Positions 2,435 to 16,522 are shown, numbered from the stretch's first letter. The stretch is 64,000 nt of DNA from an uncultured Pseudomonadota bacterium (GCA_963714525.1 CAVQPB010000005.1:275824-339823); one strand, 5' to 3'. Numbers and translations: made by a program. The notes: a model not told the origin generated them from the sequence alone.

Positions 2435-3390
2435 CGTCGATTACACGCAAGATTTGTTTTCTACCGCACCTTGCCTGGGGCCTTTGCTGGGCTTGCCTCC
2501 TGGCGTGGCATGGCCTGGGAGCCGCACCCCTATTGGCGCCTGGCGATGATGGTCAGCAAGTTATTCTGCAACAACCGGCACAACGGGTTATCTCCCTCGC
2601 GCCTCACCTAACGGAACTGATCTACGCCGCCGGCGCCGGCGATAAGCTGGTTGCGGTTTCTGCATACAGCGATTACCCCGAGGCAGCGAAGAGTCTGCCT
2701 CAAGTCGGCGACGCGTCCAATCTCGATCTCGAACGTATCGTCATGCTCAAACCCGATTTGGTGCTGGCTTGGAAAAGCAACGTCAGTCCGTTCGCCGTCG
2801 AGCGGTTACGTCGACTGTCGATTCCTGTTTATGTAACGGAAACCCGTCGCCTGGCAGGTATCCCAAAATTATTGCGCAGCATCGGCACACTCATGGGAAC
2901 GACGAGCACTGCCGAACACGCCGCGCAGAATTTTGCGGATCGAGTGCGCGATTTGGAGGAGGGCGCGCGCGGACAAACGATCATCCCGACCTTCATCGAG
3001 ATTTGGCACGATCCGCTCTTAAGCGTAAACGACGAACACATCATGAGCGAAGTGGTCTCGCTGTGCGGCGGCAGAAATATTCTGGCGAACGCGCCGATCC
3101 TGACTCCGAGCATCGGCCTGGAAACCTTGCTGGAAGCCGATCCTGGCGCGATCATCGGCGGCGGTTCGGCGGCGACTGCGGATGATTTTACGCCTGTGTG
3201 GGAAAAACACACGAGCCTAGCGGCAGTACGAAAGCGCAGCGTTTTCTTTGTCAATCCCGACTGGATCCAGCGCGCGGCGCCGCGCATTTTATTGGGCGCG
3301 AAAGTGATTTGTGAAGGCTTGCCTGCGCTCGCTCAAGTCGTTCGAAGTAAGAATTTGATAGCCACCGAGTCATTCCCACGAAAGCGGTAA
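2341..3390 (+). CDS. btuF: Periplasmic cobalamin-binding-like ABC substrate-binding protein (BtuF family); true start unresolved, probably after about 2435
   Basis: QRVISLAPHLTELIYAAGAG, YSDYP, LKPDLVLAW and NPDWIQRAAPRI. Confidence 0.8.
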   Translation: MHRLGRQRRDAAEVGCGGSRAAARTRKQDRVTSITRKICFLPHLAWGLCWACLLAWHGLGAAPLLAPGDDGQQVILQQPAQRVISLAPHLTELIYAAGAGDKLVAVSAYSDYPEAAKSLPQVGDASNLDLERIVMLKPDLVLAWKSNVSPFAVERLRRLSIPVYVTETRRLAGIPKLLRSIGTLMGTTSTAEHAAQNFADRVRDLEEGARGQTIIPTFIEIWHDPLLSVNDEHIMSEVVSLCGGRNILANAPILTPSIGLETLLEADPGAIIGGGSAATADDFTPVWEKHTSLAAVRKRSVFFVNPDWIQRAAPRILLGAKVICEGLPALAQVVRSKNLIATESFPRKR

Positions 3391-3491
3391 AACGAGACCG
3401 TAGGCCGAAGTTTTGGGAAACGGCCGTTCAGAGACTTTCAAAAAATAATAAGAGCTCCCCACCTTCGCAGGGATAATGTCCTTTGATCTTG

Positions 3492-4406
3492 TCAAGTTTT
3501 TGTAGACGACTTAATCGTTGAATTATGTTTTAGCTGTAGTTCGTAATATTCGTTTTCGAATTGTTTAGGTGATCGATAGCCGAGCGAGGAATGCAATCGC
3601 ACCGGGTTATAGAACATTTCGATGTACGCCACGATATCCGCCTTTGCGATCTCTCGCGTTTGGTAAATCTTTTGTAAATACACCCGCTCGGTCTTCAGCG
3701 TTTTCCAAAAGCTTTCCATTGCCGCATTATCGAAACAATTACCTTTGCCGCTCATGCTCGGCCGCAAGCGATAATGCTTGATGCGTTTTCGCATGGCCTT
3801 GGCGGCATACTGACTGCCCCGATCGGAATGGAAGATTGCACCCGGCGCCGGATGCTTGCGAAACCACGCCATCGTGAGTGCGTCCAGTACCAAGTCCACC
3901 GTCATCCTGGGTTTGATTGCCCAACCCACAATCGCCCGCGTATACAAATCCATCACCGCCGCCAAATACAGCCAGCCTTCTTGGGTGCGAATGTAAGTGA
4001 TGTCGCTTACGAACGCTTGGTTGGGTCCACTGGGCTGGTGTTCGGGCTCGGCTAACAAATTGGCGGCGATCGGGTTCGGATGATTCGAGTCCGTGGTCGC
4101 CTTGAACTTCCGACGCGTCTTGGCACGAATACCGTGGTTGCGCATCAATGATTTGATCCGATTCAGGCTACCCTCGTAACCGTGTTCGGCTTGCAGCACG
4201 GCACAAATTCGTGGCGCGCCGTAAATGCCACCAGAACCGTTGTGAATGGTTTTGACCAAAAACAACAAGCGCTGTTGCTCGATCACACGCGGCGCCGGCG
4301 CCCGATTCTTCCAGGCGTGATAGCCCGAGACGCACACGCTGAGCGTTTCACACGCTAGCGTCAGCGGATAGTCACACAGCGCGTTCTGAACAAAGGCGTA
4401 CTTCAC
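3492..4406 (-). CDS. IS3 transposase OrfB (DDE/integrase core)
   Basis: SDITYIRT, HSDRGSQY, GNCFDNAAMESFWKTLK and FYNPVRLHSSLGY; GTGA overlap with the orfA stop. Confidence 0.95.
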   Translation of the reverse strand: MKYAFVQNALCDYPLTLACETLSVCVSGYHAWKNRAPAPRVIEQQRLLFLVKTIHNGSGGIYGAPRICAVLQAEHGYEGSLNRIKSLMRNHGIRAKTRRKFKATTDSNHPNPIAANLLAEPEHQPSGPNQAFVSDITYIRTQEGWLYLAAVMDLYTRAIVGWAIKPRMTVDLVLDALTMAWFRKHPAPGAIFHSDRGSQYAAKAMRKRIKHYRLRPSMSGKGNCFDNAAMESFWKTLKTERVYLQKIYQTREIAKADIVAYIEMFYNPVRLHSSLGYRSPKQFENEYYELQLKHNSTIKSSTKT

Positions 4407-4702
4407 TTGCTCTCCTTGGCAAAGTACGCCGCGGCCTTTTTTAGGATGTCGCGCTCCATCTTCAATCGTTGTACCTCTTGCCGTAAGCGGCTCAACTCCT
4501 GTTGTTCAGCAGTGACGCGTAATCGCGGTGCACCTGTCACCAATTCACCCGCTCGATATTTCTTTGCCCACCCCTGAATCAATTTCGGCAGCACACCCAA
4601 TTGCTTTCCCGCTTGCGCAAAACTATAGCCCTGATCCAATACCAGCTTCGCCGCCTCAATCTTAAATTCCGCCGTAAATTGCCGGCGCTTCAACTTTTCC
4701 AT
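4403..4702 (-). CDS. IS3 transposase OrfA (HTH)
   Basis: RRQFTAEFKIEAAKLV ... LKMERDILKKAAAYFAKES. Confidence 0.95.
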   Translation of the reverse strand: MEKLKRRQFTAEFKIEAAKLVLDQGYSFAQAGKQLGVLPKLIQGWAKKYRAGELVTGAPRLRVTAEQQELSRLRQEVQRLKMERDILKKAAAYFAKESK

Positions 4703-4844
4703 CTTCGACTCCTTTCAAGGTACCCACTAAATTTACCTCGATTAAGTCGTCTATTGAAATATTACAAGATCACTTTTACTTGTTTCCCGCAACACCCAGA
4801 CGCTTTTGTTTTCCACGATTTATTTGCCAACAGTTTTGTTGATT

Positions 4845-5228
4845 TCAATCGGCTAAAGCTGAGCATTTACCACAAACACCTAGGCGAAGCTCCTCGAACA
4901 AATCCTTAGTCTGGTTAGAATCATTGCCTGTTGTGATGATGACTACCCAAGACTCCTTCGATTGTTTGGCCAAGCATCGTAAAACGCCACGCACATCACC
5001 AACTGAAAATGCCGCTGTGGTATCTGTGATTTTCTTTTCCGTGAAGTGCCAATTCTTATCGGTATTGGTGAATACTTCGTCCACTAGTTTTCCACACCAA
5101 GTCATCGATTCCGGGTAGACATAATAATAGTGGTAGTACGTCGGCGTTTTGGCAAAGGCTATCGCAGAGATAAATGTTAAGGCGCAAGCGGCCGCGAATA
5201 CTTGTAAGCTTTTAAACAGAATCATCAT
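4845..5228 (-). CDS. Hypothetical exported protein, 127 aa
   Basis: RBS (aggagg) and Sec signal peptide (...SAIAFA/K); directly downstream of the serine hydrolase. Confidence 0.75.
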   Translation of the reverse strand: MMILFKSLQVFAAACALTFISAIAFAKTPTYYHYYYVYPESMTWCGKLVDEVFTNTDKNWHFTEKKITDTTAAFSVGDVRGVLRCLAKQSKESWVVIITTGNDSNQTKDLFEELRLGVCGKCSALAD

Positions 5229-5276
5229 ATCCTCCTAGTTATCATTGACCGTCTGGTCCGTCGACTGCTCAGCCTT

Positions 5277-7226
5277 CTACTTAGTCCAATAGACCGTGTA
5301 GCGCACCTTGCCCCCCTCTTCGCACTCAGTGATCGCCCGCGTGCGAAAACCAGCACTCATCGCGTCTTCCCAACTGGTTACGAATTGCGCGGCGGTTAGC
5401 CCGTGGCTTGCTTTCAAGGCGGACACTTCAGGTTTCTCCGCCCAAATGGCCGAAAAGTGGAGCTTGCCCTGGTGAAGGTAGCTGTTCAGGTAGTGGAGAT
5501 GTCTCCCGCTCGCTTTGTTCTCATCGAACTTGGTCTGGTACTCCTCAGGGGTAAGGAATGAACGAGCTTCGAAATTTCCGATCGCCTCCTTGCTGTACAG
5601 AGCCGTGTAGCGCAGCTTCCCGCCCACCGAGGCCACGGATATGACCTTGGGCCTCCATCCATCGCTCTTCAACGAGTCGAACGATTTCTGATGTTCCTCG
5701 GCAGTGCTGCCGTGGTAAGCGGTAAATGCACCACTCGATTTTCTCCAGATGGCCGCATAAAGAACATCATTACCGACCACGTAAGAATCGACGTGTACCA
5801 ATGAAAATCCCTCTCCGCGGTATTTATCGAAATTTTGCTGATAGGTTGTGCCAGTCATGCTGCCATGATTTCTCCAATCGATCCCCTGTTCGTCCGTTCG
5901 GAAAATCACATTGAACTTCGCCTTTCCGTCATCGGTGTACCCATCGATCCATTCGAGCCGATAACCTGATTGGACAGCCTCGTCAAAAACCTGTTTGTAC
6001 TCGTTCGCCGGGACTCCGTGCCGAGCGTATTCGCAGGAACAGACGGATTTGCCCTGTTTCCAGAGGTCGAAGGTCGCGGGCACGTTGGAAGCAGGAACAG
6101 CTTGGGCTATGTCGCCCGCAAGACGGCTCAGACTTGATGTAGGGAACCCTATGTTTGTAGCAACGGCGACGTGAACCCCGCGCAAATCCACGTTGGTAGA
6201 GTCCTCGGTAAACATGGCCACGTAGGCCGCGCCGTAGCCAGCCCCACCGCTGTGTCCTAGTTTGCCTGATGACCCACTCCAGCCCATGCTATCGAGCTCC
6301 GCCGTCGTGTGCTTCTTAGCGAGGGAGGCCGTCAAGCTCAAGAGGCTCTGAGCAGAGCATGTGAACCCTCCCGCAGCCAAACCTAAATCGCTTTCCCTGA
6401 AGTCAGCTCTTTCAGGCTTAGCGTCTTTATTGAATTCGTGGTTGTGCGCGTCGCAGGAATCCGGGTTTGCCCTTCGCGGCCGCACGGCATGGTGCAGCTT
6501 CATGGGTTTAAGATAGTTCTCCCGAACGTAGTCCGGGTAGGATTTTCCCGACATCTTCTGGATGAGCAAGGTCCACAGGCCGAAGCCGTGATTTGAGTAT
6601 GATTTCCCATCATTTTTACCTAGTTCTTTTAATAGCTCAGGAGAGGGCGTCGTTCCGGGCTCATAAATGGGTCTCTCCTGCAGGAAGTGACGATGCACTT
6701 GTTCATAGGTCAGCTCATCTACCGAAACATCGAACAGTTCGGCCGCGCCATCATTACTCCCACTTCCTATAAAGCCAGCCTTGTGATCCAGCAGATTTTG
6801 AATGGTGATCTTTTCGTACCATGCCTTCCACTTGGCTGCATCTGGCATGTTCTTCTTAAGGCCATTTTTAATGCCAATATCGATGTCGGCATCAAACATG
6901 CCACCGAACAATCCTTTCGGACCATAAAGCTTCGTTGACTTGGGATCGATCTTCTTCGACTTCATCAACCGGAAGCCGGCTGGTCCGGTGACGACGGCTT
7001 TCGCCACACTCCCGGTTTCGCTGCGCGAGCACGGTTTCATCGGCAATTTCCTCGTTCCTTCCACGAGAGCGGAGCCGTAGCCCTTCGATAGGAGAAGCCG
7101 TCCCTCTTTTGTAACGGCAACCGTCATTCCCGGCAAGGTTTTTTCCTCAACCAATGCCTCGACGAGACTATCGACCTTTTCCTCAAGTTTATCCCAGGCC
7201 TCGCCTGTGGATTTTGGTGTATTCAT
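5277..7226 (-). CDS. Beta-lactamase-fold serine hydrolase with five C-terminal polyglycine-hydrolase-like tandem repeats (BTRD1-type)
   Basis: SxxK (GSVAK), YxN (YSN) and HxG (GHSGG); five ~50-aa repeats of the form HG...YQ..FD....G........Y..G...Y.AIW; RBS aggag; no signal peptide. Confidence 0.88.
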   Translation of the reverse strand: MNTPKSTGEAWDKLEEKVDSLVEALVEEKTLPGMTVAVTKEGRLLLSKGYGSALVEGTRKLPMKPCSRSETGSVAKAVVTGPAGFRLMKSKKIDPKSTKLYGPKGLFGGMFDADIDIGIKNGLKKNMPDAAKWKAWYEKITIQNLLDHKAGFIGSGSNDGAAELFDVSVDELTYEQVHRHFLQERPIYEPGTTPSPELLKELGKNDGKSYSNHGFGLWTLLIQKMSGKSYPDYVRENYLKPMKLHHAVRPRRANPDSCDAHNHEFNKDAKPERADFRESDLGLAAGGFTCSAQSLLSLTASLAKKHTTAELDSMGWSGSSGKLGHSGGAGYGAAYVAMFTEDSTNVDLRGVHVAVATNIGFPTSSLSRLAGDIAQAVPASNVPATFDLWKQGKSVCSCEYARHGVPANEYKQVFDEAVQSGYRLEWIDGYTDDGKAKFNVIFRTDEQGIDWRNHGSMTGTTYQQNFDKYRGEGFSLVHVDSYVVGNDVLYAAIWRKSSGAFTAYHGSTAEEHQKSFDSLKSDGWRPKVISVASVGGKLRYTALYSKEAIGNFEARSFLTPEEYQTKFDENKASGRHLHYLNSYLHQGKLHFSAIWAEKPEVSALKASHGLTAAQFVTSWEDAMSAGFRTRAITECEEGGKVRYTVYWTK

Positions 7227-7308
7227 GATTTATCTCCTGACTATAATCAATTCGACGTCCGAACCATTTCCGCAAAACCAGCGGATACTGCCTGCTAATC
7301 CATGACCA

Positions 7309-7392
7309 CTAACTAATGACCGGCGCATTTGCCAAAGCCGTTTTGACGCGTTGCCGAACAATTCGAGGGAATGTGTATTCATTGTGAAACAT
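7309..7392 (-). CDS. Putative 27-aa small ORF (MFHNEYTFPRIVRQRVKTALANAPVIS)
   Basis: Strong RBS GAAGGAGCAACATC-ATG, nearly identical to the leader of the 12408 gene; 98 bp downstream of motif copy 1. Confidence 0.4.
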   Translation of the reverse strand: MFHNEYTFPRIVRQRVKTALANAPVIS

Positions 7393-7489
7393 GATGTTGC
7401 TCCTTCTAACTAGGAATGAATGTCGCAAATTGCGTTGTCCGCGACGCGAGGTCGGGCGTCCGTCATTCGGCGATGCCCTTCTACTCACT

Positions 7490-7518
7490 AATGGCGCAGG
7501 AATCGTCAAAAGCGGTCA
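7490..7518 (-). promoter_or_regulatory. Putative ECF promoter, copy 1 (TGACCGCTTT-N10-TGCGCCATT)
   Basis: Exact 10+9 nt match with a 10-nt spacer in four places, each upstream of a minus-strand unit. Confidence 0.75.
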
Positions 7519-7715
7519 GAAATAGGGGTGGCTGTCGCCTCGTGGTTGATAACCCGTCCGGCGAAACCGATAGCGCCATGCAATTTGAGCGCGGGATTTT
7601 AAACACGTTAGCGCCAATGGGGCTAACGCTTTTGGCCTATGTCGTTTAGTCTATTGTCTTCGACACAGTGATGGCTTAGGCTAAGTCACGTTGAAATCCA
7701 CCGAATGGATAAGCG

Positions 7716-8333
7716 ATGGAACCGGTAGTGACCTGGAACGATGTGCATGGTCTGATGAGCGATGTTCGGGTGATCGCGCGCCGCTTGCTTAGGTTCGAAG
7801 CACATGCGCAATCGCTGCAAACCACTGGACTGGTGTTGACCGGATTAAGACGGCAACGGCTCGCCGATCAAGACTGGAGTGAGGTGACGTGGCAGAATCG
7901 CGAGCGCTTTCTCGCTGCGATGTACCGCGCCATGGACCGCGCGCTAAAGGATCACGGACGGCGCCGCACGGCACAAAAACGCTGGGCTCGGCAAAGCATC
8001 GCGATAGAAGATTTGTCGCCGAACGAATTGTTACGCACCGCCGACTTTCAGCCTCACGAAATGGAACGTGTCCTCGATGAACGTCCGGAAGTCATCGAAG
8101 CCCTCGCCGAGGCACTCGCTTCGTTGGAACAAAATCATCCCGATTGGGCTTGGATCGCGAAGCATCGTTACTACGGCGCGCTGACGATCGAACAGACTGC
8201 TCAAGTCATGGGCATCGGCGAGCGCACCGTCCGACGGCACTGGGAGCAGGCACGCATCCTGCTGCACGACGAAATCGTCCGCGGCTTGAGCGCACGCGGC
8301 TACGAAGCCCAGGAGATGGAGTGCAGTCGTTAA
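7716..8333 (+). CDS. ECF-type RNA polymerase sigma factor (TIGR02999 / Sigma70_ECF family, kinase-associated)
   Basis: SLQTTGLV, WQNRERFLAAMYRAMDRALKDHGRRRTAQKR and RYYGALTIEQTAQVMGIGERTVRRHW. Confidence 0.9.
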   Translation: MEPVVTWNDVHGLMSDVRVIARRLLRFEAHAQSLQTTGLVLTGLRRQRLADQDWSEVTWQNRERFLAAMYRAMDRALKDHGRRRTAQKRWARQSIAIEDLSPNELLRTADFQPHEMERVLDERPEVIEALAEALASLEQNHPDWAWIAKHRYYGALTIEQTAQVMGIGERTVRRHWEQARILLHDEIVRGLSARGYEAQEMECSR

Positions 8334-10234
8334 GCGAAGCTCAGTGGGCTCGCTACTTCAACTTAATCGAGAGCTTGGAGGAGATGCCCGCCGATCAACG
8401 TCACGCTACGGTATGTTCGCTGCGAGCAGAAGCCGACGATGATACGGTTTTCAGATTAGTGGAGTTGCGACTCGGTTTGACCCCCGACTTCGATCGCGAC
8501 CGCAGCGGCGAACAGATACGCAATTTTGTGCTGCGGGAACAAATCGGCCGCGGCGGAATGGGCGTGATCTACCGCGCGGTGCAGATATTTTCTGACGGTA
8601 TCGAGCGCGAAGTCGCTATAAAGCTGATTCATCCCGAGTTAGTCGCACACCGGCAGGATGAAGCGCTGCAACACTTTCAGCAAGAGATCGGGGCGTTAGT
8701 TAAGCTCGAACACAGAGGCATTGCGCGCATCTATGACGGAGGCCTGCAGTGCGATACTGATGGGCGCGAAGAAACACTTTTTTTCGCGATGGAGTTCGTG
8801 CAAGGCATGCCGGTCACGGAATACGTTGCCCAGAAACGAGCCAAACTGCGCTTAACCGGGACGCTGCGACTATTCTTGCACATCTGCGATGCGGTGGCCT
8901 ACGCGCATCGCCAGGACATCATCCATCGCGACCTCAAGCCAGCCAACATCCTAGTCGATGCCGAAGGCGATCCACGCATCATCGACTTCGGCCTCGCTCA
9001 GCTTTGTGGAACTGCGATCCGTGGAAACCACCAGCTCTCCGGAACACCCGCATACATGAGTCCCGAGCAGTTAGGCGCTGATTCGCAGCCGCTTACCCCG
9101 GCGAGCGATGTCTATACGCTGGGACTCGTTCTGTGCGAGCTCTTGATAGGGCGGCGTCCGCGTAAAACGGATGTTAAATCGGCGGCATCCGAAGACCTTA
9201 GTCTCTATTACCCGGAATGCAGCCTTGAACTGCAGCAAACGGTCAACAAAGCCATCGCGGCGAGACTCACTGATCGGTACTCGTCGGTAGAAGCATTGAG
9301 TAAAGCCGTCGTTCGATGCCTCAAGGCAGCCGATTTGCAAGCGAAACGCGCGCTCCACTGCCGCGAATACTTGATCAAAAAAGTACAAAGCTTTTGGATC
9401 GACGGCGTACTTAGCAACTCACTACACGCGGCTGTTTCGATCGAACTTGGATTGGCGATAAAAGCGGACGCAGTCGACCATCCTTGGGACTTGATCATCC
9501 AAACGCGCGATGAGCTTTCACGCCCGTTACCGCCCGGCACAAAGGCAAGCGACGTGTTCCAAGAATTGAACGAGGCGATGCTGATACTCGGCGTCCCGGG
9601 CGCCGGCAAGACCACGTTGCTGCTTGAATTGACCCGCGACCTATTGACGCTAGCCAAGCACGACCGATCGCAGCGTGTGCCGGTTGTGTTCCACCTATCG
9701 ACCTGGGCGGAAAAGCGCTTGCCATTGGCCGATTGGTTGATCGACGAATTAGATAAGCGTTATTACCTGCCACCGGGCGCAGGCCGAAGTTACCTCGCAA
9801 GCGGCCAACTCGCGGTGTTGCTCGATGGATTGGACGAAGTGGCGCCTGCATATCGGGCCTCGTGTGTTAACGCCATCAACGAATTTAGCAAGACCCATAA
9901 CTCGATCCCGGTGGCCGTATGCAGCCGCATGGTGGACTATGAAACGATGTCGGTGCGGCTGCAACTGAATGGTGCGGTGGTCATTCAAGCGCTCACGCGC
10001 GAGCAGATCGACGACTACTTCGAGCGCGCGGGAGAACCTTTGGCCGGCGTGCGGATTGCGCTTGGCCATGACGAGCAGTTGTGGGCGTTGATGAAAACGC
10101 CATTGCTGCTGAGCATTGCGGCTCTGGCCTACCATAAGAGTTCATTCCATACACCAAAAATAGCGGCCACGCTGGACGAAAGGCGCAGCGCAGCTTTTCG
10201 CGGCGTACACCGAAGCCATGTTCGCGCGGCGTAG
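8321..10234 (+). CDS. Hanks-type Ser/Thr kinase fused to a NACHT NTPase (N-terminal part; the frame continues through three +1 shifts to 11161)
   Basis: GTG start with RBS aggaga overlapping the sigma gene; GRGGMG, VAIK, HRDLKPAN, DFG and GTPAYMSPEQ; Walker A GVPGAGKT and Walker B LLDGLDEV. Confidence 0.9.
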   Translation: MQSLSEAQWARYFNLIESLEEMPADQRHATVCSLRAEADDDTVFRLVELRLGLTPDFDRDRSGEQIRNFVLREQIGRGGMGVIYRAVQIFSDGIEREVAIKLIHPELVAHRQDEALQHFQQEIGALVKLEHRGIARIYDGGLQCDTDGREETLFFAMEFVQGMPVTEYVAQKRAKLRLTGTLRLFLHICDAVAYAHRQDIIHRDLKPANILVDAEGDPRIIDFGLAQLCGTAIRGNHQLSGTPAYMSPEQLGADSQPLTPASDVYTLGLVLCELLIGRRPRKTDVKSAASEDLSLYYPECSLELQQTVNKAIAARLTDRYSSVEALSKAVVRCLKAADLQAKRALHCREYLIKKVQSFWIDGVLSNSLHAAVSIELGLAIKADAVDHPWDLIIQTRDELSRPLPPGTKASDVFQELNEAMLILGVPGAGKTTLLLELTRDLLTLAKHDRSQRVPVVFHLSTWAEKRLPLADWLIDELDKRYYLPPGAGRSYLASGQLAVLLDGLDEVAPAYRASCVNAINEFSKTHNSIPVAVCSRMVDYETMSVRLQLNGAVVIQALTREQIDDYFERAGEPLAGVRIALGHDEQLWALMKTPLLLSIAALAYHKSSFHTPKIAATLDERRSAAFRGVHRSHVRAA

Positions 10235-11161
10235 CAAAATCGCCCGCTATACGCCTGAGCAATCGATGCGCTGGCTGGGATGGCTGGCGAGTACCATGCA
10301 ACGTCATCACCAAAGCGTGTTCTACTTAGAATGGATGCAGCCCGATTGGCTGTTGCGTCCCATCGAGCGCTGGGCGGTCAGTGTCGGGTCAGTGATGCTG
10401 TGCGGTGGGTTGGTCGGCATCGTGGTCGGCTGGCGGCGCTAGCCTCGCGAGCGAATATGCGTTGAGTTTCCCGATTTCATTGACGCTCGGCTTGGTCGGT
10501 GGGCTGGTTTTCGGGTTGCTAGGCCACGGCGATCAAGATGCGTCCGATTTTCCGGTTGGGCTGGTCATGGGCAGCGCTGCGCGACGGCTTGGGGCGCAAG
10601 ATGATTCTGGCGTTGGGCGCCGGCGCGTTGTTGAGTGCTGGCATTGCGCTGGTATTCGATGCGGCGGTGGGCATTGCGGTTGGACTGGCGATGACTGTGG
10701 CATTTTGCTACTTCGGCGGACTCGATTTGGAACGGTTCAGAAATGACCCCGGCCACTTCACCGTACCCAACGAAGGGATACGGCGATCGCTGCGTAACGC
10801 CTTACTCGGGGCTGTCGTCGGTACCGTCGGCGGTGGTCTGGCGGGAGGGTTGGCCGGCGGCGCGGCAGGTGCGTTGTTCGGCGCCACCGTTTTCGCACTA
10901 ATTAGTGCGATGCTAGTTGGCGGCTACACGTGTTTGCAGCATCTTATTCTTAGACTCCTGTTATGGCGAAACCGGTTCACACCTTTGCGCTATGTTGATT
11001 TTCTAGAATATGCCGTCGAGCGTATTCTTCTGCGCCGAGTGGGAGGCGGTTATGCGTTCGTCCATCGTGCGATGCTAGAGTATTTCGCCGCGACCTACAC
11101 ACCTAAAGCCCTCGTACAGGTAGGCCGTGGCCGGGGGTCCGGCCACGGCTCAATGGGTTAA
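10192..11161 (+). pseudogene. Frameshifted continuation of the kinase-NACHT gene: multi-TM Gly-rich region and conserved C-terminal module
   Basis: QLFAAYTEAMF...WLGWLASTM...FYLEWMQPDWL, then GLVGGLVFG helices, then LQHLILRLLLW...YVDFLEYAVERILLRRVGGGYAFVH; breaks at about 10190, 10430 and 10530; may be a sequencing artefact. Confidence 0.8.
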
Positions 11162-11162
11162 G

Positions 11163-11627
11163 CTATGGCGCAGGCGACGGGCCTGACACCGGCGCCAGTG
11201 GATTATTAAAGTTATCGCGACATTCCACAAAAACGCGATAGGATTCCGTGCTGGCGCCGCTTTTTTCGACCAGCAGGTAATATTTGCCGGCGCCCATGTT
11301 GACGTTGACGGTCGCGCTAGGAAATTCCCCGATCAATGGCGGATTAATTTGCGCTTGTAAACCATCGACCGCATCGGTGGTTTCGCTCTTCGTTACTCCC
11401 TTGATCATCTTCAGGGTGACGAGCGGCGTGTGCACGGGCGCCCGATCTGTTACGTTTCCCGAAATGTGATGCGTTCCCGCCGGACACTCAAGCACAAATA
11501 AGTCAACGCTGCTTGCCGGAACACCCATGCTATCGTTGATCACCGCTGCCTGCGAAATTGGTGCGCTCGCCAGGGCGATGCAAAGTGGGGTAAGCATGCT
11601 TGCTCTCTTTAATGCGTTCGTCTTCAT
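11163..11627 (-). CDS. Hypothetical exported beta-rich protein, 154 aa; paralog of the N-terminal domain of 12539-13846
   Basis: Signal peptide, two mature Cys, GKYYLLVEK strand; about 75% identity to the paralog by manual alignment. Confidence 0.85.
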   Translation of the reverse strand: MKTNALKRASMLTPLCIALASAPISQAAVINDSMGVPASSVDLFVLECPAGTHHISGNVTDRAPVHTPLVTLKMIKGVTKSETTDAVDGLQAQINPPLIGEFPSATVNVNMGAGKYYLLVEKSGASTESYRVFVECRDNFNNPLAPVSGPSPAP

Positions 11628-11744
11628 GATCGATCCTTTCAGCCGCCACCATCGGTGGACGACAAGTTCGTTTAAAAAGAAGTCAATTTCCTACTCAGGC
11701 AAGAGGCGATGACACATTGTTCGCGTTTCTCTTCCTGTAATCTC

Positions 11745-11773
11745 AATGGCGCAAGATTGGGCGAAAGCGGTCA
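11745..11773 (-). promoter_or_regulatory. Putative ECF promoter, copy 2
   Basis: Plus strand aatggcgca-agattgggcg-aaagcggtca; 118 bp upstream of the ATG at 11627. Confidence 0.75.
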
Positions 11774-11841
11774 AACCATGGGTCCGAAGCCCGGGAAATT
11801 GTCCGCGTCGCGGCAGCAACGCGCCGCGACGCCTAGAGATA

Positions 11842-12408
11842 TCAATTGGGAAGCTGCGCGTCCAAGCAATTGACGGTCATGGACACGTCCGTTACCGTCG
11901 CATTCGCGCCACCGGTCTTACGCGCCAGGCAGTAAATGTTTTGGTAATAGGTTTGGGGGACGTTGAAGAAGCACGTGGTGGTTACCTCTTTCATCCGATT
12001 GTCCGGAATAGCCGCATCCGGAATCATCGCATTGGCAGGAATGTTGTTGAATCCGAGCGTGCGCTCACATGCCCCATTCGGGAGCGGGTTCACATTGTTG
12101 AGCGACAAGGTAAAGAGATAGACGTGTGGGGGGCCGAAATAGCCTGGATTGGCGAAATCCGCGCTACAAACTGCCGTGCAGTAACGTGGCATCACTGCGT
12201 TGACCGGGACAGACCGAAGAACCGTCCAGGCTGCGCCCACGGGTTGGTCCGCATTTGTAGCGCTACCGCCCGCCGCGTCCGCCGCCAACAGGTTCGGCGA
12301 CAGCAATGCAAGGGATGCAGGCAAGGCCAGCGCGATCAGCGTCTTGAGAATCGGCCCTTCTGTGTGTTGCCGCGATGATTGCTTTAATGTCATTTTTCCA
12401 GAAGACAT
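11842..12408 (-). CDS. Hypothetical exported Cys-rich protein, 188 aa
   Basis: RBS gaaggag, signal peptide (...PNLLA/ADA) and six Cys in the mature part. Confidence 0.8.
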   Translation of the reverse strand: MSSGKMTLKQSSRQHTEGPILKTLIALALPASLALLSPNLLAADAAGGSATNADQPVGAAWTVLRSVPVNAVMPRYCTAVCSADFANPGYFGPPHVYLFTLSLNNVNPLPNGACERTLGFNNIPANAMIPDAAIPDNRMKEVTTTCFFNVPQTYYQNIYCLARKTGGANATVTDVSMTVNCLDAQLPN

Positions 12409-12507
12409 GGTGTTGCTCCTTCAAAAAGAGTTTGAATCTCGCAAACTCGTATGTCTGCAAGGTTTATGGGCTGGGCTTTGACGACTGTCATTGCCTTTCC
12501 CACTGCT

Positions 12508-12536
12508 AATGGCGCAAAAACCGGGAAAAGCGGTCA
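12508..12536 (-). promoter_or_regulatory. Putative ECF promoter, copy 3
   Basis: Plus strand aatggcgca-aaaaccggga-aaagcggtca; 100 bp upstream of the ATG at 12408. Confidence 0.75.
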
Positions 12537-12538
12537 GC

Positions 12539-13846
12539 TCAGGAGGGGCCGCCCGTCATCCAGGCCTTGCGGATTAGCCGCCCGCACTTCACCGACTCGA
12601 TGGCTGCGCCGCCGACGGCCGCGCGCGCGACGATGCCGTAATAGGTCTTGTCCGCGTCGATCCAGGGATAGAAGCCGAAAGCACCCGGGCTGCTGAACGC
12701 GCCATCGCCCACCGCCGGATCGTCCTCCACCCAATGCCCTAGCGAGTATTGCCATTTCTCGTCGGCGGGAATCGGTGTGTTCACGGCCGACGCGCACGTG
12801 GCCGGATTCGTGCACACCGCATGCGTGCCCAGCGCGCGGCCCATGCGCAGGTCGCCGGTGAGCATCTTGCGCAGGAACTTCGCGTATTGGCGGGCGCTGG
12901 TGCGCACGCCGCCGGCTGGCTGCGGCTGCGTATACGTCATGGCGATCTCGGCGCCGATCTGGCCGCGTACTTCTGCGGCAAGCCCAGCGTTGTTCAGGCC
13001 GTCCAACCCTTCCAGGCTTGCGTGCTTTTGCATGTGGCCGCCGTTGTAGAAGAACTTGCCGTCGGTGGCCCCGTCGTACTCGCCGTTGCTGCCGCTGGCC
13101 AGGCACAAACCCACCGTGGGGTTGTTGTTGCAGTTGTCGAAACTGCTGTAGCCGCTTCGGAAGTTGAGGAATTTGATGTCCTGCGCGGTGAGCGCGCCCA
13201 AACGCTTTTCGACGACATAGGCGCCGTATATCCACTTCGAAGCGGACGCCACATTGAGCAAGGTGTCCGCGCTGTAGACCGGGGCGCGCACCGAACCGCT
13301 TGCGATGCGCGCGGCCTGGTCGCCGATCTCCCAGTAGAACGACGGCAGCGATGCGCAGGCGTTGCTCATGCTTTGCGCGGTGGCCGTGGCGGCGGCGACG
13401 CGGGCGGCATTAGTCAGGTCGGGGGCGGGACCTGCCACTGGCGGGAGAACATTGTTGAACGCGTCGCGGCAGGTCACGGAGACCCGATAGATCTCCGGAC
13501 CGGGACCGCTTTTCTCGACCAGCAAGTAGTATGTGCCGGCGCCTAGATTGGCGTTCACGGTCGGGCTGGGGAACTCGCCGCCATCCACTGGATCGGTAGT
13601 TTCGCTCTTGCCCACCCCCTTGATGATCTTCAACGTTACCAGCGGCGCTTGAAGCGGCGCTCGGTCCGTGATGTTGCCCGAGACATGGTGAGTGCCGGCG
13701 GGGCACTGGAGCACGAACAGATCGACGCTTGCCGTGGGAACGCCCAGGCTGTCGTTGATGATCGCGGCCGGCGAAATAGTTGCACTCGCCAGGGCGATGC
13801 AAAGCGGGGTGAGTATGCTTGCGCTCTTTAAAACTTTGGTTTTCAT
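12539..13846 (-). CDS. Exported two-domain protein: unknown N-terminal beta domain plus beta-lactamase-like serine hydrolase
   Basis: Start MKTKVLK; SxxK (VASASKW), FFYNGGHMQ and SSPGAFGFYPWID. Confidence 0.85.
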   Translation of the reverse strand: MKTKVLKSASILTPLCIALASATISPAAIINDSLGVPTASVDLFVLQCPAGTHHVSGNITDRAPLQAPLVTLKIIKGVGKSETTDPVDGGEFPSPTVNANLGAGTYYLLVEKSGPGPEIYRVSVTCRDAFNNVLPPVAGPAPDLTNAARVAAATATAQSMSNACASLPSFYWEIGDQAARIASGSVRAPVYSADTLLNVASASKWIYGAYVVEKRLGALTAQDIKFLNFRSGYSSFDNCNNNPTVGLCLASGSNGEYDGATDGKFFYNGGHMQKHASLEGLDGLNNAGLAAEVRGQIGAEIAMTYTQPQPAGGVRTSARQYAKFLRKMLTGDLRMGRALGTHAVCTNPATCASAVNTPIPADEKWQYSLGHWVEDDPAVGDGAFSSPGAFGFYPWIDADKTYYGIVARAAVGGAAIESVKCGRLIRKAWMTGGPS

Positions 13847-13961
13847 GGTTGATCCTTTCAGTCGCCACGATGGCAGTGGCCCGTTGAAAAAAAAGAAGCC
13901 GAAATGGCTACCCAAGTAAGAGGCGATGACAGGGTGTTCGCGTTTCTCTGTCGGTATTCAC

Positions 13962-13990
13962 AATGGCGCAAAATTGAGCGAAAGCGGTCA
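13962..13990 (-). promoter_or_regulatory. Putative ECF promoter, copy 4
   Basis: Plus strand aatggcgca-aaattgagcg-aaagcggtca; 116 bp upstream of the ATG at 13846. Confidence 0.75.
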
Positions 13991-14093
13991 AACCACGGGC
14001 AGGAAAGTCGTGATTCCGACCTCCATGGAAATTTGGCGCGCATCCGCTGTTGAGTATGAATGGTGGGCACATCAGGAGCGAGGTCGCGTCACT

Positions 14094-14219
14094 GTGCGGC
14101 GACAGAATCTTTTCTACGTTAATCCAGATTGGATACTGCGAGCGAGGCCGAGGATTTTATTTGGGGCAAAAGTGATTTGCGTAGGACTTGAACGCGCTGG
14201 GATAGATCAACTGAAGTGA
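14094..14219 (+). pseudogene. Remnant second copy of the 3' end of the BtuF-like gene
   Basis: VRRQNLFYVNPDWILRARPRILFGAKVICVGL versus VRKRSVFFVNPDWIQRAAPRILLGAKVICEGL (3226-3321), 22/32 identical. Confidence 0.8.
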
Positions 14220-14241
14220 TAGAGAACGCCGCGCATTAATT

Positions 14242-14386
14242 TGTCATTGCCCCCCTGACTAAAGCATTCGAGGGCAGGCTACAGCGGGAATCCAGTGTCT
14301 TTTGCTCAACGACACTGGGTCCCCGCCTTCGCGGGGACGACATACTATTACTTTGTAATTGGATTCCCGCTTTCGCGGGAATGACA
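14242..14386. repeat. Composite cluster of the GTCATT...AATGAC palindromic repeat family
   Basis: gcgggaatcc, ccccgccttcgcggggacgac and ggattcccgctttcgcgggaatgaca units. Confidence 0.7.
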
Positions 14387-14400
14387 TTTAGGCAAGCCGT

Positions 14401-16229: not shown

Positions 16230-16340
16230 CTAAGGAAGCTCTGAATAATCGAATTCTAAGTAAGATCAAGGCGAACAAGCAAAAAATATCGACGCAGCAT
16301 ATGGATGATATGTAAGGAGATATTTTTTGTGAGTAACCGA
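16230..16340 (+). mobile_element. MITE-like element, copy A (right end truncated)
   Basis: Starts CTAAGGAAGCTCTGA; the interior aligns with the copy at 33571-33719. Confidence 0.7.
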
Positions 16341-16342
16341 AA

Positions 16343-16522
16343 TCAATACTTCCAATTCTTGCGGCGATTTACCCAGCGTAAACGAATGACCGTCAAGGCG
16401 GCGCCCAGCAGCAGGGCGCCGGACACTTGACCTATTTGCACATCGGTCGAGGCAAACGCGGTTAAGCCGCTGATGGTGTAAACGTAGGGAGAGAGTTCGT
16501 ACCAGATCGTTTCGAGATCCAT
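16343..16522 (-). CDS. Small membrane protein, 59 aa (below the ORF-track cutoff)
   Basis: MDLETIWYELSPYVYTISGLTAFASTDVQIGQVSGALLLGAALTVIRLRWVNRRKNWKY; RBS aagga; two hydrophobic segments and a basic tail. Confidence 0.65.
   Translation of the reverse strand: MDLETIWYELSPYVYTISGLTAFASTDVQIGQVSGALLLGAALTVIRLRWVNRRKNWKY

What the first reader, a model, noticed from the sequence alone, without database searches (positions are those of the whole stretch)
7490..13990. The same bipartite motif TGACCGCTTT-N10-TGCGCCATT occurs four times, always upstream of minus-strand cargo genes
Copies lie at 7490-7518, 11745-11773, 12508-12536 and 13962-13990. All 19 fixed bases and the 10-nt spacer length are invariant while the spacer sequence differs. 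Each sits 98-118 bp upstream of an RBS-ATG. TGACC to CGCCAT is 17 nt, which is typical ECF -35/-10 spacing. I found no complete copy elsewhere in the window. Inference: this is the promoter of the adjacent sigma factor, so the regulon can be read directly from the DNA.
Basis: partly seen in the sequence, partly recalled or inferred. Interest (0 to 1): 0.85.

Follow-up and report, generated by a model that had tools for sequence, protein, structure and literature searches.

The report
Promoter of a kinase-switched sigma factor
A 29-base two-box DNA signal repeated in front of several exported-protein genes is very probably the promoter read by the neighbouring kinase-controlled ECF sigma factor, so this small regulon can be read from sequence, which is useful but an ordinary kind of finding.

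Summary
TGACCGCTTT-N10-TGCGCCATT occurs exactly four times on the minus strand, at the stated coordinates (0.05 expected by chance).

In the whole 5.5-Mb genome a weight-matrix scan is bimodal. Seven sites score about 40-46 bits, one is intermediate at 27, and the rest is noise.

The adjacent gene (7716-8333) encodes an ECF sigma factor (Pfam PF07638) carrying the ECF43-type "QTT" motif. A Ser/Thr kinase-NACHT gene follows it.

The decisive evidence is comparative. In 10 of 12 contigs carrying a 61-86% identical sigma-kinase pair, the same motif lies within about 2.3 kb of the pair and points into the next gene. Across all 22 sites the two boxes stay 84-97% identical, while spacer and flanks are near random. 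GCGCCAT is present in 21 of 22. The downstream genes are variable, mostly exported proteins and hydrolases.

The geometry fits ECF promoters (TGACCG-N16-CGCC). It fits neither sigma-70 nor sigma-54.

Only DNA metagenome runs were found, so no start site could be mapped and sigma dependence remains inferred. The promoter reading is supported at confidence about 0.8. It is a new member of a known kind, and interest is moderate.

The parts
7490..7518 (-). Motif copy 1 (TGACCGCTTT-tgacgattcc-TGCGCCATT), a predicted -35/-10 promoter. It is divergent from the sigma gene, 198 bp away. It drives the leader, the 27-codon ORF and the hydrolase gene 5277-7226.
11745..11773 (-). Motif copy 2, a predicted promoter of the 154-aa exported protein gene 11163-11627.
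   Evidence: An identical site stands in front of the 86%-identical orthologue in L158.
12508..12536 (-). Motif copy 3, a predicted promoter of the 188-aa exported protein gene 11842-12408. It starts 3 nt after the stop codon of the upstream gene.
13962..13990 (-). Motif copy 4, a predicted promoter of the 435-aa exported protein gene 12539-13846.
7716..8333 (+). ECF sigma factor of 205 aa, ECF43-like. SLQTTGLV sits at residues 33-40. No copy of the motif lies on its own strand upstream.
   Evidence: QTT rule from PMC13147305 and PMC8999054.
8321..11161 (+). Hanks-type Ser/Thr kinase fused to a NACHT NTPase and a Gly-rich membrane tail. It is the presumed activator of the sigma. Its reading frame changes three times between about 10190 and 10540 in this assembly.
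   Evidence: Intact 913-960 aa orthologues. Relatives' contigs.
5277..7226 (-). Target gene: a serine beta-lactamase-fold domain plus five BTRD1 (polyglycine-hydrolase-like) repeats, 649 aa, with no obvious signal peptide.
   Evidence: A domain-homologous gene (Beta-lactamase + BTRD1; only the repeat region aligns, 29%) follows the motif in L159.
7309..7392 (-). 27-codon ORF (MFHNEYTFPRIVRQRVK...) behind a strong RBS. It resembles the N-terminus of the 181-aa target on contig C6, so it is either a remnant or a leader peptide.
11163..11627 (-). Target gene: a 154-aa exported protein with no family match.
11842..12408 (-). Target gene: a 188-aa exported protein with no family match.
12539..13846 (-). 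Target gene: an exported protein whose N-terminal domain is a paralogue of 11163-11627, followed by a weak beta-lactamase-fold domain.
   Evidence: The orthologous domain follows a motif in L160.
3388..14359 (.). Accessory island of about 11 kb that carries the whole system plus an IS3-family transposase (3492-4702). An island-free junction exists in related metagenome strains.
   Evidence: table 5c (joint 3387 to 14360). The sigma is absent from 9 same-genus genomes.

Best explanation
The motif is the target promoter of the island's own ECF43-like sigma factor (7716-8333). TGACC(G/A)(C/G)TTT is the -35 element, read by sigma region 4. (T/C)GCGCCAT(T/A), with core CGCC, is the -10 element, read by region 2. 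The geometry is TGACCG-N16-CGCC. Transcription is expected to start about 6-9 nt after the second box, at a conserved purine tract (GA[A/G]G). That would give 50-120-nt leaders, or 263 nt for the hydrolase gene. By analogy with EcfP/PknT and EcfK/PknS, the sigma would be inactive until the adjacent Ser/Thr kinase(-NACHT) phosphorylates a threonine of its QTT motif. The holoenzyme would then fire all motif-bearing units together. These are four cassettes in the island and three to four elsewhere in the genome, mostly encoding exported proteins and hydrolases. Shown here: the motif, its genome-wide rarity, its orientation, its box-versus-spacer conservation, and its co-occurrence with sigma-kinase orthologues. 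Inferred: that it is a promoter, that this sigma reads it, the start site, and the phosphorylation switch.
For: 1. There are four exact copies against 0.05 expected.
2. The genome-wide PWM scan is bimodal: seven sites at 39.7-46.4 bits, one at 26.8, and the rest at 22 or below.
3. The gene next to the sites is an ECF sigma (PF07638, 67.6 bits; the fold search returns only sigma factors). It is followed by a Hanks kinase.
4. Ten of 12 contigs with a 61-86% identical sigma-kinase pair carry 14 sites (19.3-38.5 bits), all within about 2.3 kb of the pair and most within 700 nt, and each points into the next gene. One of the two contigs without a site ends about 100 nt after the kinase. The background is one hit of at least 19 bits in 837 kb of unrelated or distant loci.
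5. Over the 22 sites, pairwise identity is 0.84-0.97 in the boxes, 0.40 in the spacer and 0.27-0.34 in the flanks. GCGCCAT is present in 21 of 22.
6. Sigma and kinase are the only genes common to all these loci. The cargo varies but draws on shared families: BTRD1 hydrolases, beta-lactamase fold, and small exported proteins.
7. Same-genus genomes without the sigma have at most one 2-mismatch hit.
8. No sigma-70-like promoter precedes the target genes.
9. The spacing and the T-tract after the -35 box match the general ECF layout (established knowledge; for example sigmaW TGAAAC-N16-CGTA).
Against: - No transcription start data exist. All runs that hold the locus are DNA metagenome contigs.
- The boxes read GACC and CGCC rather than the commonest ECF cores AAC and CGT.
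- The sigma scores below the NCBIfam TIGR02999 cut-off (80 against 126 bits).
- In this assembly the kinase-NACHT frame is interrupted three times, so the switch may be defective in this strain.
- One orthologous locus of adequate length (L161) has no site.
- More distant relatives (43-51% identity) lack the motif. I could not extract a co-varying motif from them.
- The four window copies are two pairs of paralogous cassettes, so they are not four independent events.
Confidence: 0.8

Rival explanations
1. The motif is an operator or activator site for a different DNA-binding regulator encoded elsewhere. In that case the sigma is merely a neighbour.
For: No direct binding or transcription data exist. 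A weakly conserved purine tract lies 7-11 nt downstream, and conserved leader sequence is present. These show that more than two boxes are under constraint in some cassettes.
Against: - The motif is asymmetric: it is neither a palindrome nor a direct repeat (read directly from the sequence).
- Its spacing is strictly fixed and its orientation relative to the downstream gene is strict in all 22 sites.
- It co-occurs with sigma-kinase orthologues on contigs whose other genes differ. No other regulator gene is shared among them.
- It is absent from sigma-less genomes of the same genus.
Confidence: 0.08
2. The motif is a promoter, but it is read by another alternative sigma factor of the host. The genome has four weaker PF07638/ECF hits.
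For: One search lists four other ECF-like genes in the genome. Cross-recognition among ECFs is known in general.
Against: - The other ECFs are not linked to the sites.
- The motif follows this particular sigma clade across different contigs and genera.
- It disappears in relatives at 43-51% identity.
- It is absent from same-genus genomes lacking this sigma.
Confidence: 0.05
3. The repeat is conserved only by descent. It would be part of a duplicated promoter-leader cassette or a mobile/recombination element (REP, MITE or attC-like), with no specific function for the two boxes.
For: - The window copies fall into two paralogous cassette pairs with alignable leaders.
- The island is accessory and carries an IS3 transposase.
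Against: - Within those cassettes the spacer and flanks have drifted to 30-43% identity while the boxes stay at 95-97%.
- Sites in other contigs share nothing but the boxes.
- The motif contains no inverted repeat, and no integrase is present.
- Only 7-8 copies exist in 5.5 Mb.
- Rfam finds nothing.
Confidence: 0.04

Closest known systems
ECF43 sigma factors activated by a cognate Hanks-type Ser/Thr kinase: EcfP/PknT of Vibrio parahaemolyticus and EcfK/PknS of Xanthomonas citri (PMC8999054, PMC13147305)
   Same: - The sigma has two domains.
- A kinase gene lies immediately downstream in the same orientation, and no anti-sigma gene is present.
- An uncharged S/T motif (here SLQTTG; ECF43 consensus QTTA) stands where other ECFs have the acidic DAED-type motif.
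- No copy of the target motif lies upstream of the sigma gene itself, so autoregulation through this motif is unlikely.
- The sigma controls a small, dedicated gene set.
   Different: - In most orthologues the kinase is fused to a NACHT NTPase and a membrane tail, rather than being a simple receptor kinase.
- The regulon is a variable set of exported proteins and hydrolases (beta-lactamase fold, BTRD1 repeats, metzincin-like), not polymyxin-resistance genes or a type VI secretion system.
- The sigma is divergent: it falls below the TIGR02999 cut-off and has no sequence match to any solved sigma.
- I could not retrieve the published promoter sequences of EcfP or EcfK, so no promoter comparison was made.
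Generic ECF promoters, for example sigmaW TGAAAC-N16-CGTA and sigmaE GGAACTT-N16-TCAAA (from established knowledge, not tested here)
   Same: - The signal is bipartite, with a fixed 16-17 nt gap between the cores.
- A T-rich tract follows the -35 core.
- The -10 core begins with CG.
- The spacer sequence is not conserved.
- Stringency is high, so only a handful of sites exist per genome.
   Different: - The -35 core reads GACC rather than (G)AAC.
- The -10 reads GCGCCAT rather than CGT(C/A).
- The -10 box is longer and more invariant than the -35 box.
- A purine tract at the expected start region is also conserved.

Membership tests
ECF-sigma-dependent promoter | Two conserved boxes separated by a non-conserved spacer of fixed length | tested here: met
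   In 22 sites, pairwise identity is 0.84-0.97 in the boxes and 0.40 in the spacer. The spacer is always 10 nt.
ECF-sigma-dependent promoter | A gap of 16-17 nt between the -35 core and the -10 core | tested here: met
   The layout is TGACCG-N16-CGCC, or TGACC-N17-CGCCAT, read directly.
ECF-sigma-dependent promoter | The commonest ECF cores: AAC in the -35 box and CGT in the -10 box | tested here: not met
   The cores are GACC and CGCC. ECF groups differ in their cores, so this lowers resemblance to the commonest logo but does not exclude the class.
ECF-sigma-dependent promoter | Upstream of a gene and pointing towards it | tested here: met
   All 7 strong own-genome sites and all 14 sites in orthologous loci point into the next gene, 49-118 nt before its start where a start is close. 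Copy 3 lies 3 nt after the preceding stop codon.
ECF-sigma-dependent promoter | Transcription start 5-10 nt downstream of the -10 box | not testable with these tools
   Only DNA metagenome contigs hold the locus.
ECF-sigma-dependent promoter | Transcription depends on the cognate sigma | not testable with these tools
   Only co-occurrence evidence is available.
ECF43 (kinase-activated ECF sigma) | Sigma-70 family protein with only the sigma2 and sigma4 domains | tested here: met
   PF07638 scores 67.6 bits over residues 14-187. The AlphaFold model has pLDDT 74, and all top PDB fold hits are ECF or sigma-70 factors. Region 4 superposes on 2h27 with TM 0.83.
ECF43 (kinase-activated ECF sigma) | A Hanks-type Ser/Thr kinase gene adjacent to the sigma gene | tested here: met
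   Pkinase matches at 8.5e-41 in the next gene. A kinase lies directly downstream in 11 of the 12 orthologous loci; in the twelfth (L162) the next gene is cut by the contig end and was not checked.
ECF43 (kinase-activated ECF sigma) | The acidic DAED-type motif of region 2.2 is replaced by an uncharged S/T motif (QTTA consensus) | tested here: inconclusive
   SLQTTGLV sits at residues 33-40, and SLQTT is the consensus in 22 homologues (S33 invariant). It lies at the start of the second helix of the model. No residue-level alignment to EcfP, EcfK or a DAED-bearing ECF was made.
ECF43 (kinase-activated ECF sigma) | Scores above the curated cut-off of the TIGR02999 (Sig-70_X6) model | tested here: not met
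   The score is 80 bits against a cut-off of 126.15. It is the best NCBIfam hit but sub-threshold, so this is a divergent relative.
ECF43 (kinase-activated ECF sigma) | Assignment by the ECF Hub classifier (Casas-Pastor et al. 2021) | not testable with these tools
   The ECF Hub models and the supplementary text are not held.
Sigma-70 (housekeeping) promoter | A -10 hexamer with A at position 2 and T at position 6 (TAnnnT) | tested here: not met
   The hexamer at the right distance is CGCCAT. The consensus scan calls no site at any of the four copies.
Sigma-54 promoter | GG and GC dinucleotides 10 nt apart (TGGCAC-N5-TTGC) | tested here: not met
   The invariant positions contain no GG.
REP / MITE / attC-type repeat | Internal inverted repeat, many copies, and no fixed relation to genes | tested here: not met
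   The boxes are not complementary to each other, which is read directly from the sequence. There are 7-8 copies in 5.5 Mb, all gene-proximal and co-oriented. Rfam finds nothing.

The most novel reading that the evidence does not exclude
The motif would be the output end of a self-contained, horizontally mobile three-tier module. A STAND/NACHT-kinase sensor phosphorylates a dedicated sigma factor. That sigma then fires interchangeable promoter-leader cassettes placed in front of a shuffled arsenal of exported hydrolases, which may target the cell wall or other organisms' proteins. This would amount to an NLR-like sensor wired directly to transcription in bacteria. The promoter would act as the plug that lets new cargo join the regulon.
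Probability: 0.3. Interest if true: 0.7.

Novelty: new member of a known kind. Interest (0 to 1): 0.4.

Why it matters
Kinase-activated ECF43-type sigma factors are widespread, but only two are characterised. The general classifications predict ECF promoters from autoregulation (PMC7826278), and here no copy of the motif precedes the sigma gene, so that route would not find it. In this clade the promoter can be read directly because each cargo gene carries its own copy beside the regulator.

This yields three practical things:
- a ready regulon list for a soil and wastewater Burkholderiales clade;
- a clean reporter for studying what the unusual NACHT-kinase senses;
- a potentially orthogonal sigma/promoter pair for synthetic biology.

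It does not change how ECF sigma factors are understood.

Tried and rejected
**Start-site mapping.** Two run searches and two read-laying runs (42, 44, 47, 58) returned only low-depth DNA metagenome contigs. Contig ends near the motif are explained by repeat-induced assembly breaks, so they were not used as evidence.

**Published ECF43 promoter logos.**
- The Casas-Pastor supplement is not held.
- The EcfK/PknS and review papers give no promoter sequence.
- The Iyer et al. 2020 paper is not in the library.

**A co-varying motif in more distant sigma-kinase pairs (43-51% identity).** The PWM finds nothing. A gapped k-mer count was swamped by coding homology. Inspection of the intergenic DNA gave no clear bipartite motif.

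**Sequence search of the sigma against PDB.**
- The single-sequence search found nothing meaningful.
- The profile search gave only weak region-4 hits.
- The fold search was needed to see the ECF relationship.

**Alternative classes considered.**
- Sigma-54 and sigma-70 readings were rejected on sequence (and direct reading).
- Known RNA families were rejected.
- Leader folding gave z-scores that are unremarkable except for the 12508 leader.

**Other limits.**
- The Piscinibacter sp. XHJ-5 genome (71% identical sigma) could not be fetched.
- The search of 185,579 species genomes found only one close orthologue.


Full report
**Observation**

A pattern search with up to three mismatches finds exactly four matches to TGACCGCTTT-N10-TGCGCCATT in the window. 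All four are perfect, all are on the minus strand, and they lie at 7490, 11745, 12508 and 13962. Chance expectation is 0.05, and none of 100 dinucleotide shuffles reaches four.

- The spacers differ.
- TGACC and CGCCAT are 17 nt apart.
- The next Shine-Dalgarno/ATG lies 97-117 nt downstream.

At the 7490 copy that ATG opens only a 27-codon ORF. The hydrolase gene begins 263 nt after the motif.

The copies are two pairs of paralogous promoter-leader cassettes, so they are not four independent events.

**Surroundings**

- ORF 7716-8333 (+) matches Pfam Sigma70_ECF (PF07638) at 67.6 bits.
- The next gene carries a Hanks-type protein kinase domain (8.5e-41) and a NACHT NTPase domain.
- The genes behind the four motifs encode:
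  - a beta-lactamase-fold protein with five BTRD1 (polyglycine-hydrolase-like) repeats (5277-7226);
  - a 154-aa exported protein and a 188-aa exported protein with no family match;
  - a 435-aa exported protein that combines a paralogue of the 154-aa protein with a weak beta-lactamase-fold domain.
- The sigma carries SLQTTGLV at residues 33-40. In ECF43 sigma factors an uncharged QTTA/STTA motif replaces the acidic DAED motif of region 2.2, and its threonine is the phospho-switch (PMC13147305, PMC8999054).
- The best NCBIfam hit is TIGR02999, at 80 bits against a cut-off of 126. The protein is therefore a divergent relative.
- An AlphaFold model built from 22 homologues (pLDDT 74) finds only sigma-70/ECF structures in the PDB. 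Its region 4 superposes on E. coli sigmaE region 4 bound to -35 DNA.

**Whole genome**

The window is C5:275824-339823 of a 5.54-Mb, 30-contig assembly. A weight matrix built from the sites gives a bimodal result:

| Class | Sites | Score (bits) |
|---|---|---|
| Strong | Four window copies, C6:388516, C22:76821, C22:66073 | 39.7-46.4 |
| Intermediate | C6:387788 | 26.8 |
| Remainder | Next best lies inside a gene on the other strand | 22 or below |

- The three strong sites outside the window precede genes for small exported proteins.
- The intermediate site lies about 675 nt before an exported beta-propeller protein gene and remains uncertain.
- Only one gene in the genome gives a strong PF07638 hit: the window's sigma.
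- The motif is therefore neither an abundant repeat nor confined to the island.

**Comparative evidence, which carries most weight**

The sigma is absent from nine other genomes of the same genus. One genome of another genus in the family (an uncultured Burkholderiales MAG) has a 63% identical copy. In that genome the sigma is followed by a kinase. Overlapping the kinase stop codon stands TGACCGGTTTTCTCGGACTTCGCGCCATT. It lies 106 nt before the orthologue (72% identity) of the exported protein that carries the motif on contig C22 of the window's genome.

Sixty homologues at 57-93% identity exist, mostly in metagenomes. I fetched eleven further contigs that carry them.

Counting the MAG, 10 of 12 loci hold 14 sites (19.3-38.5 bits), all within about 2.3 kb of the sigma-kinase pair and most within 700 nt. 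Most lie 14-90 nt after the kinase stop or divergent from the sigma start, and every one points into the next gene. Of the two loci without a site:
- L163 ends about 100 nt after the kinase.
- L161 is long enough and has none.

The same matrix finds one hit of at least 19 bits in 837 kb of unrelated or distantly related loci. Apart from sigma and kinase, the loci share no gene.

The cargo varies but draws on recurrent families:
- BTRD1-repeat hydrolases with a beta-lactamase-fold or metzincin-like catalytic domain;
- a beta-lactamase-fold protein;
- small exported Cys-containing proteins.

The NACHT domain is present in most kinases but absent in four loci that still have the motif. This leaves the sigma as the only shared DNA-binding protein.

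**Anatomy of the 22 sites**

The consensus is TGACC(G/A)(C/G)TTT-N10-(T/C)GCGCCAT(T/A).

| Region | Mean pairwise identity |
|---|---|
| First box | 0.84 (0.97 within the genome) |
| Second box | 0.92 (0.95 within the genome) |
| Spacer | 0.40 |
| 30-nt flanks | 0.27-0.34 |

- GCGCCAT is present in 21 of 22 sites.
- This box-versus-spacer contrast holds inside the paralogous cassettes, so the boxes are kept by selection rather than by recent descent.
- The layout TGACCG-N16-CGCC, with a T-tract after the first box, is the ECF layout known from established examples, such as sigmaW TGAAAC-N16-CGTA. The cores differ from the commonest AAC/CGT.
- The hexamer at sigma-70 distance is CGCCAT, which lacks the essential A at position 2. 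A consensus scan calls no sigma-70-like promoter in front of any target.
- The invariant positions contain no GG, so the site is not a sigma-54 promoter.
- The two boxes are not complementary, and Rfam finds nothing.
- A purine tract (GA[A/G]G) sits 7-11 nt after the second box in about 20 of 22 sites. This is where the transcription start is expected.
- No copy of the motif lies on the plus strand before the sigma gene. Autoregulation through this motif is therefore unlikely, and the usual autoregulation-based route to predicting an ECF promoter (PMC7826278) would not find it.

**What could not be shown**

All public runs holding the locus are low-depth DNA metagenome contigs from sediment, biofilter and wastewater samples. 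No transcription start or expression data exist. Promoter function, sigma dependence and the phosphorylation switch are therefore inferences.

I could not retrieve the published promoter sequences of EcfP or EcfK, nor the ECF Hub predictions.

**Side results from the read laying**

- Related strains carry a junction joining window position 3387 to 14360. The 11-kb stretch with the IS3 transposase, sigma, kinase and cargo is thus an accessory island.
- The hydrolase cassette (about 5004-7508) is missing from the relatives sampled.
- The relatives have one base fewer at each of the three places where the window's kinase-NACHT frame changes. Orthologues have uninterrupted genes of 913-960 aa.
- The kinase may therefore be damaged in this strain, or the assembly may contain errors.

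**Verdict**

It is a new member of a known kind: the target promoter and regulon of an uncharacterised, divergent ECF43-like, kinase-coupled sigma clade. Interest is moderate. The finding gives an immediately testable sigma/promoter pair and a regulon of exported hydrolases. The more unusual aspect is the NACHT-kinase sensor and the modular cargo cassettes, which is a separate question.

Noticed in passing
window 10188-10535 (within 8321-11161): The kinase-NACHT gene changes reading frame three times (frames 1, 2, 3, 1). Orthologues are uninterrupted at 913-960 aa, and related metagenome contigs have one base fewer at each of the three places. This is either a damaged gene or assembly errors.
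   Followed up: partly
window 3387 / 14360: Contigs in two metagenome runs join 3387 to 14360, with 28-29 other letters between, at higher depth than the island itself. This is an island-free form, so the 11-kb sigma/kinase/cargo region is an accessory insertion next to an IS3-family transposase (3492-4702).
   Followed up: partly
window 5004-7508: The hydrolase gene, its promoter cassette and the 127-aa exported protein gene 4845-5228 are not covered in any of four metagenome runs that cover the rest of the island. An 86%-identical sigma locus (L163) has a Peripla_BP_2 gene there instead. Cargo content differs between strains.
   Followed up: partly
window 7309-7392 (-) and G000 C6:387868-388413: The 27-codon ORF behind copy 1 (MFHNEYTFPRIVRQRVK...) resembles the first ~20 residues of the 181-aa product behind the C6 site (MFHRTSAFTRIQRQRAK...). 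The cassette was copied together with the start of a coding region. It could be a remnant or a conserved leader peptide.
   Followed up: no
window 7420-7446 and 12434-12462 (-); L005 leader: The leaders of the 7490, 12508 and C6 cassettes share a hairpin (GUCGCGGA...UUUGCGAC versus CUUGCAGAC...GUUUGCGAG) with one G-C to C-G exchange and two one-sided changes that keep pairing. Only the 12508 leader folds better than shuffles (z -3.7).
   Followed up: partly
7-11 nt downstream of the second box in about 20 of 22 sites (e.g. window 7476-7482): A conserved purine tract GA(A/G)G, with 82-100% purine at six consecutive positions, lies at the expected start region. It is a third, weaker constrained element whose role is unknown.
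   Followed up: partly
window 14270-14400 and 16231-16354: REP-like palindromic units (ATTCCCGCGAAAGCGGGAAT type) show 20-170x summed depth in metagenomes. In addition, a 122-bp segment (16232-16353) is skipped in contigs of three runs, which suggests a small insertion element.
   Followed up: no
G000 C22:65480-66101 and 76227-76849: The motif-bearing gene for a 164-aa exported protein is duplicated about 10.7 kb apart, together with its flanks. The second copy is split into two overlapping frames (100 + 114 aa).
   Followed up: no
L084 about 7090-7390 and L085 about 7240-7390 (downstream of the 1501-aa kinase of a 45%-identical sigma): Several copies of a palindromic unit GCCA(G/C)ATAA(T/C)(A/G)TGGCG follow the kinase gene. 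They are unrelated to the motif studied here and may be a different cis element in that clade.
   Followed up: no
L081, L083, L084, L085, L090, about 120-160 nt upstream of the sigma start: In the 43-51% identity clade, a block CACTCTTCCTGGCGACAC(C/T)GCC(A/G)GGGGGAAA(C/G)TGGACA is conserved upstream of the sigma gene.
   Followed up: no
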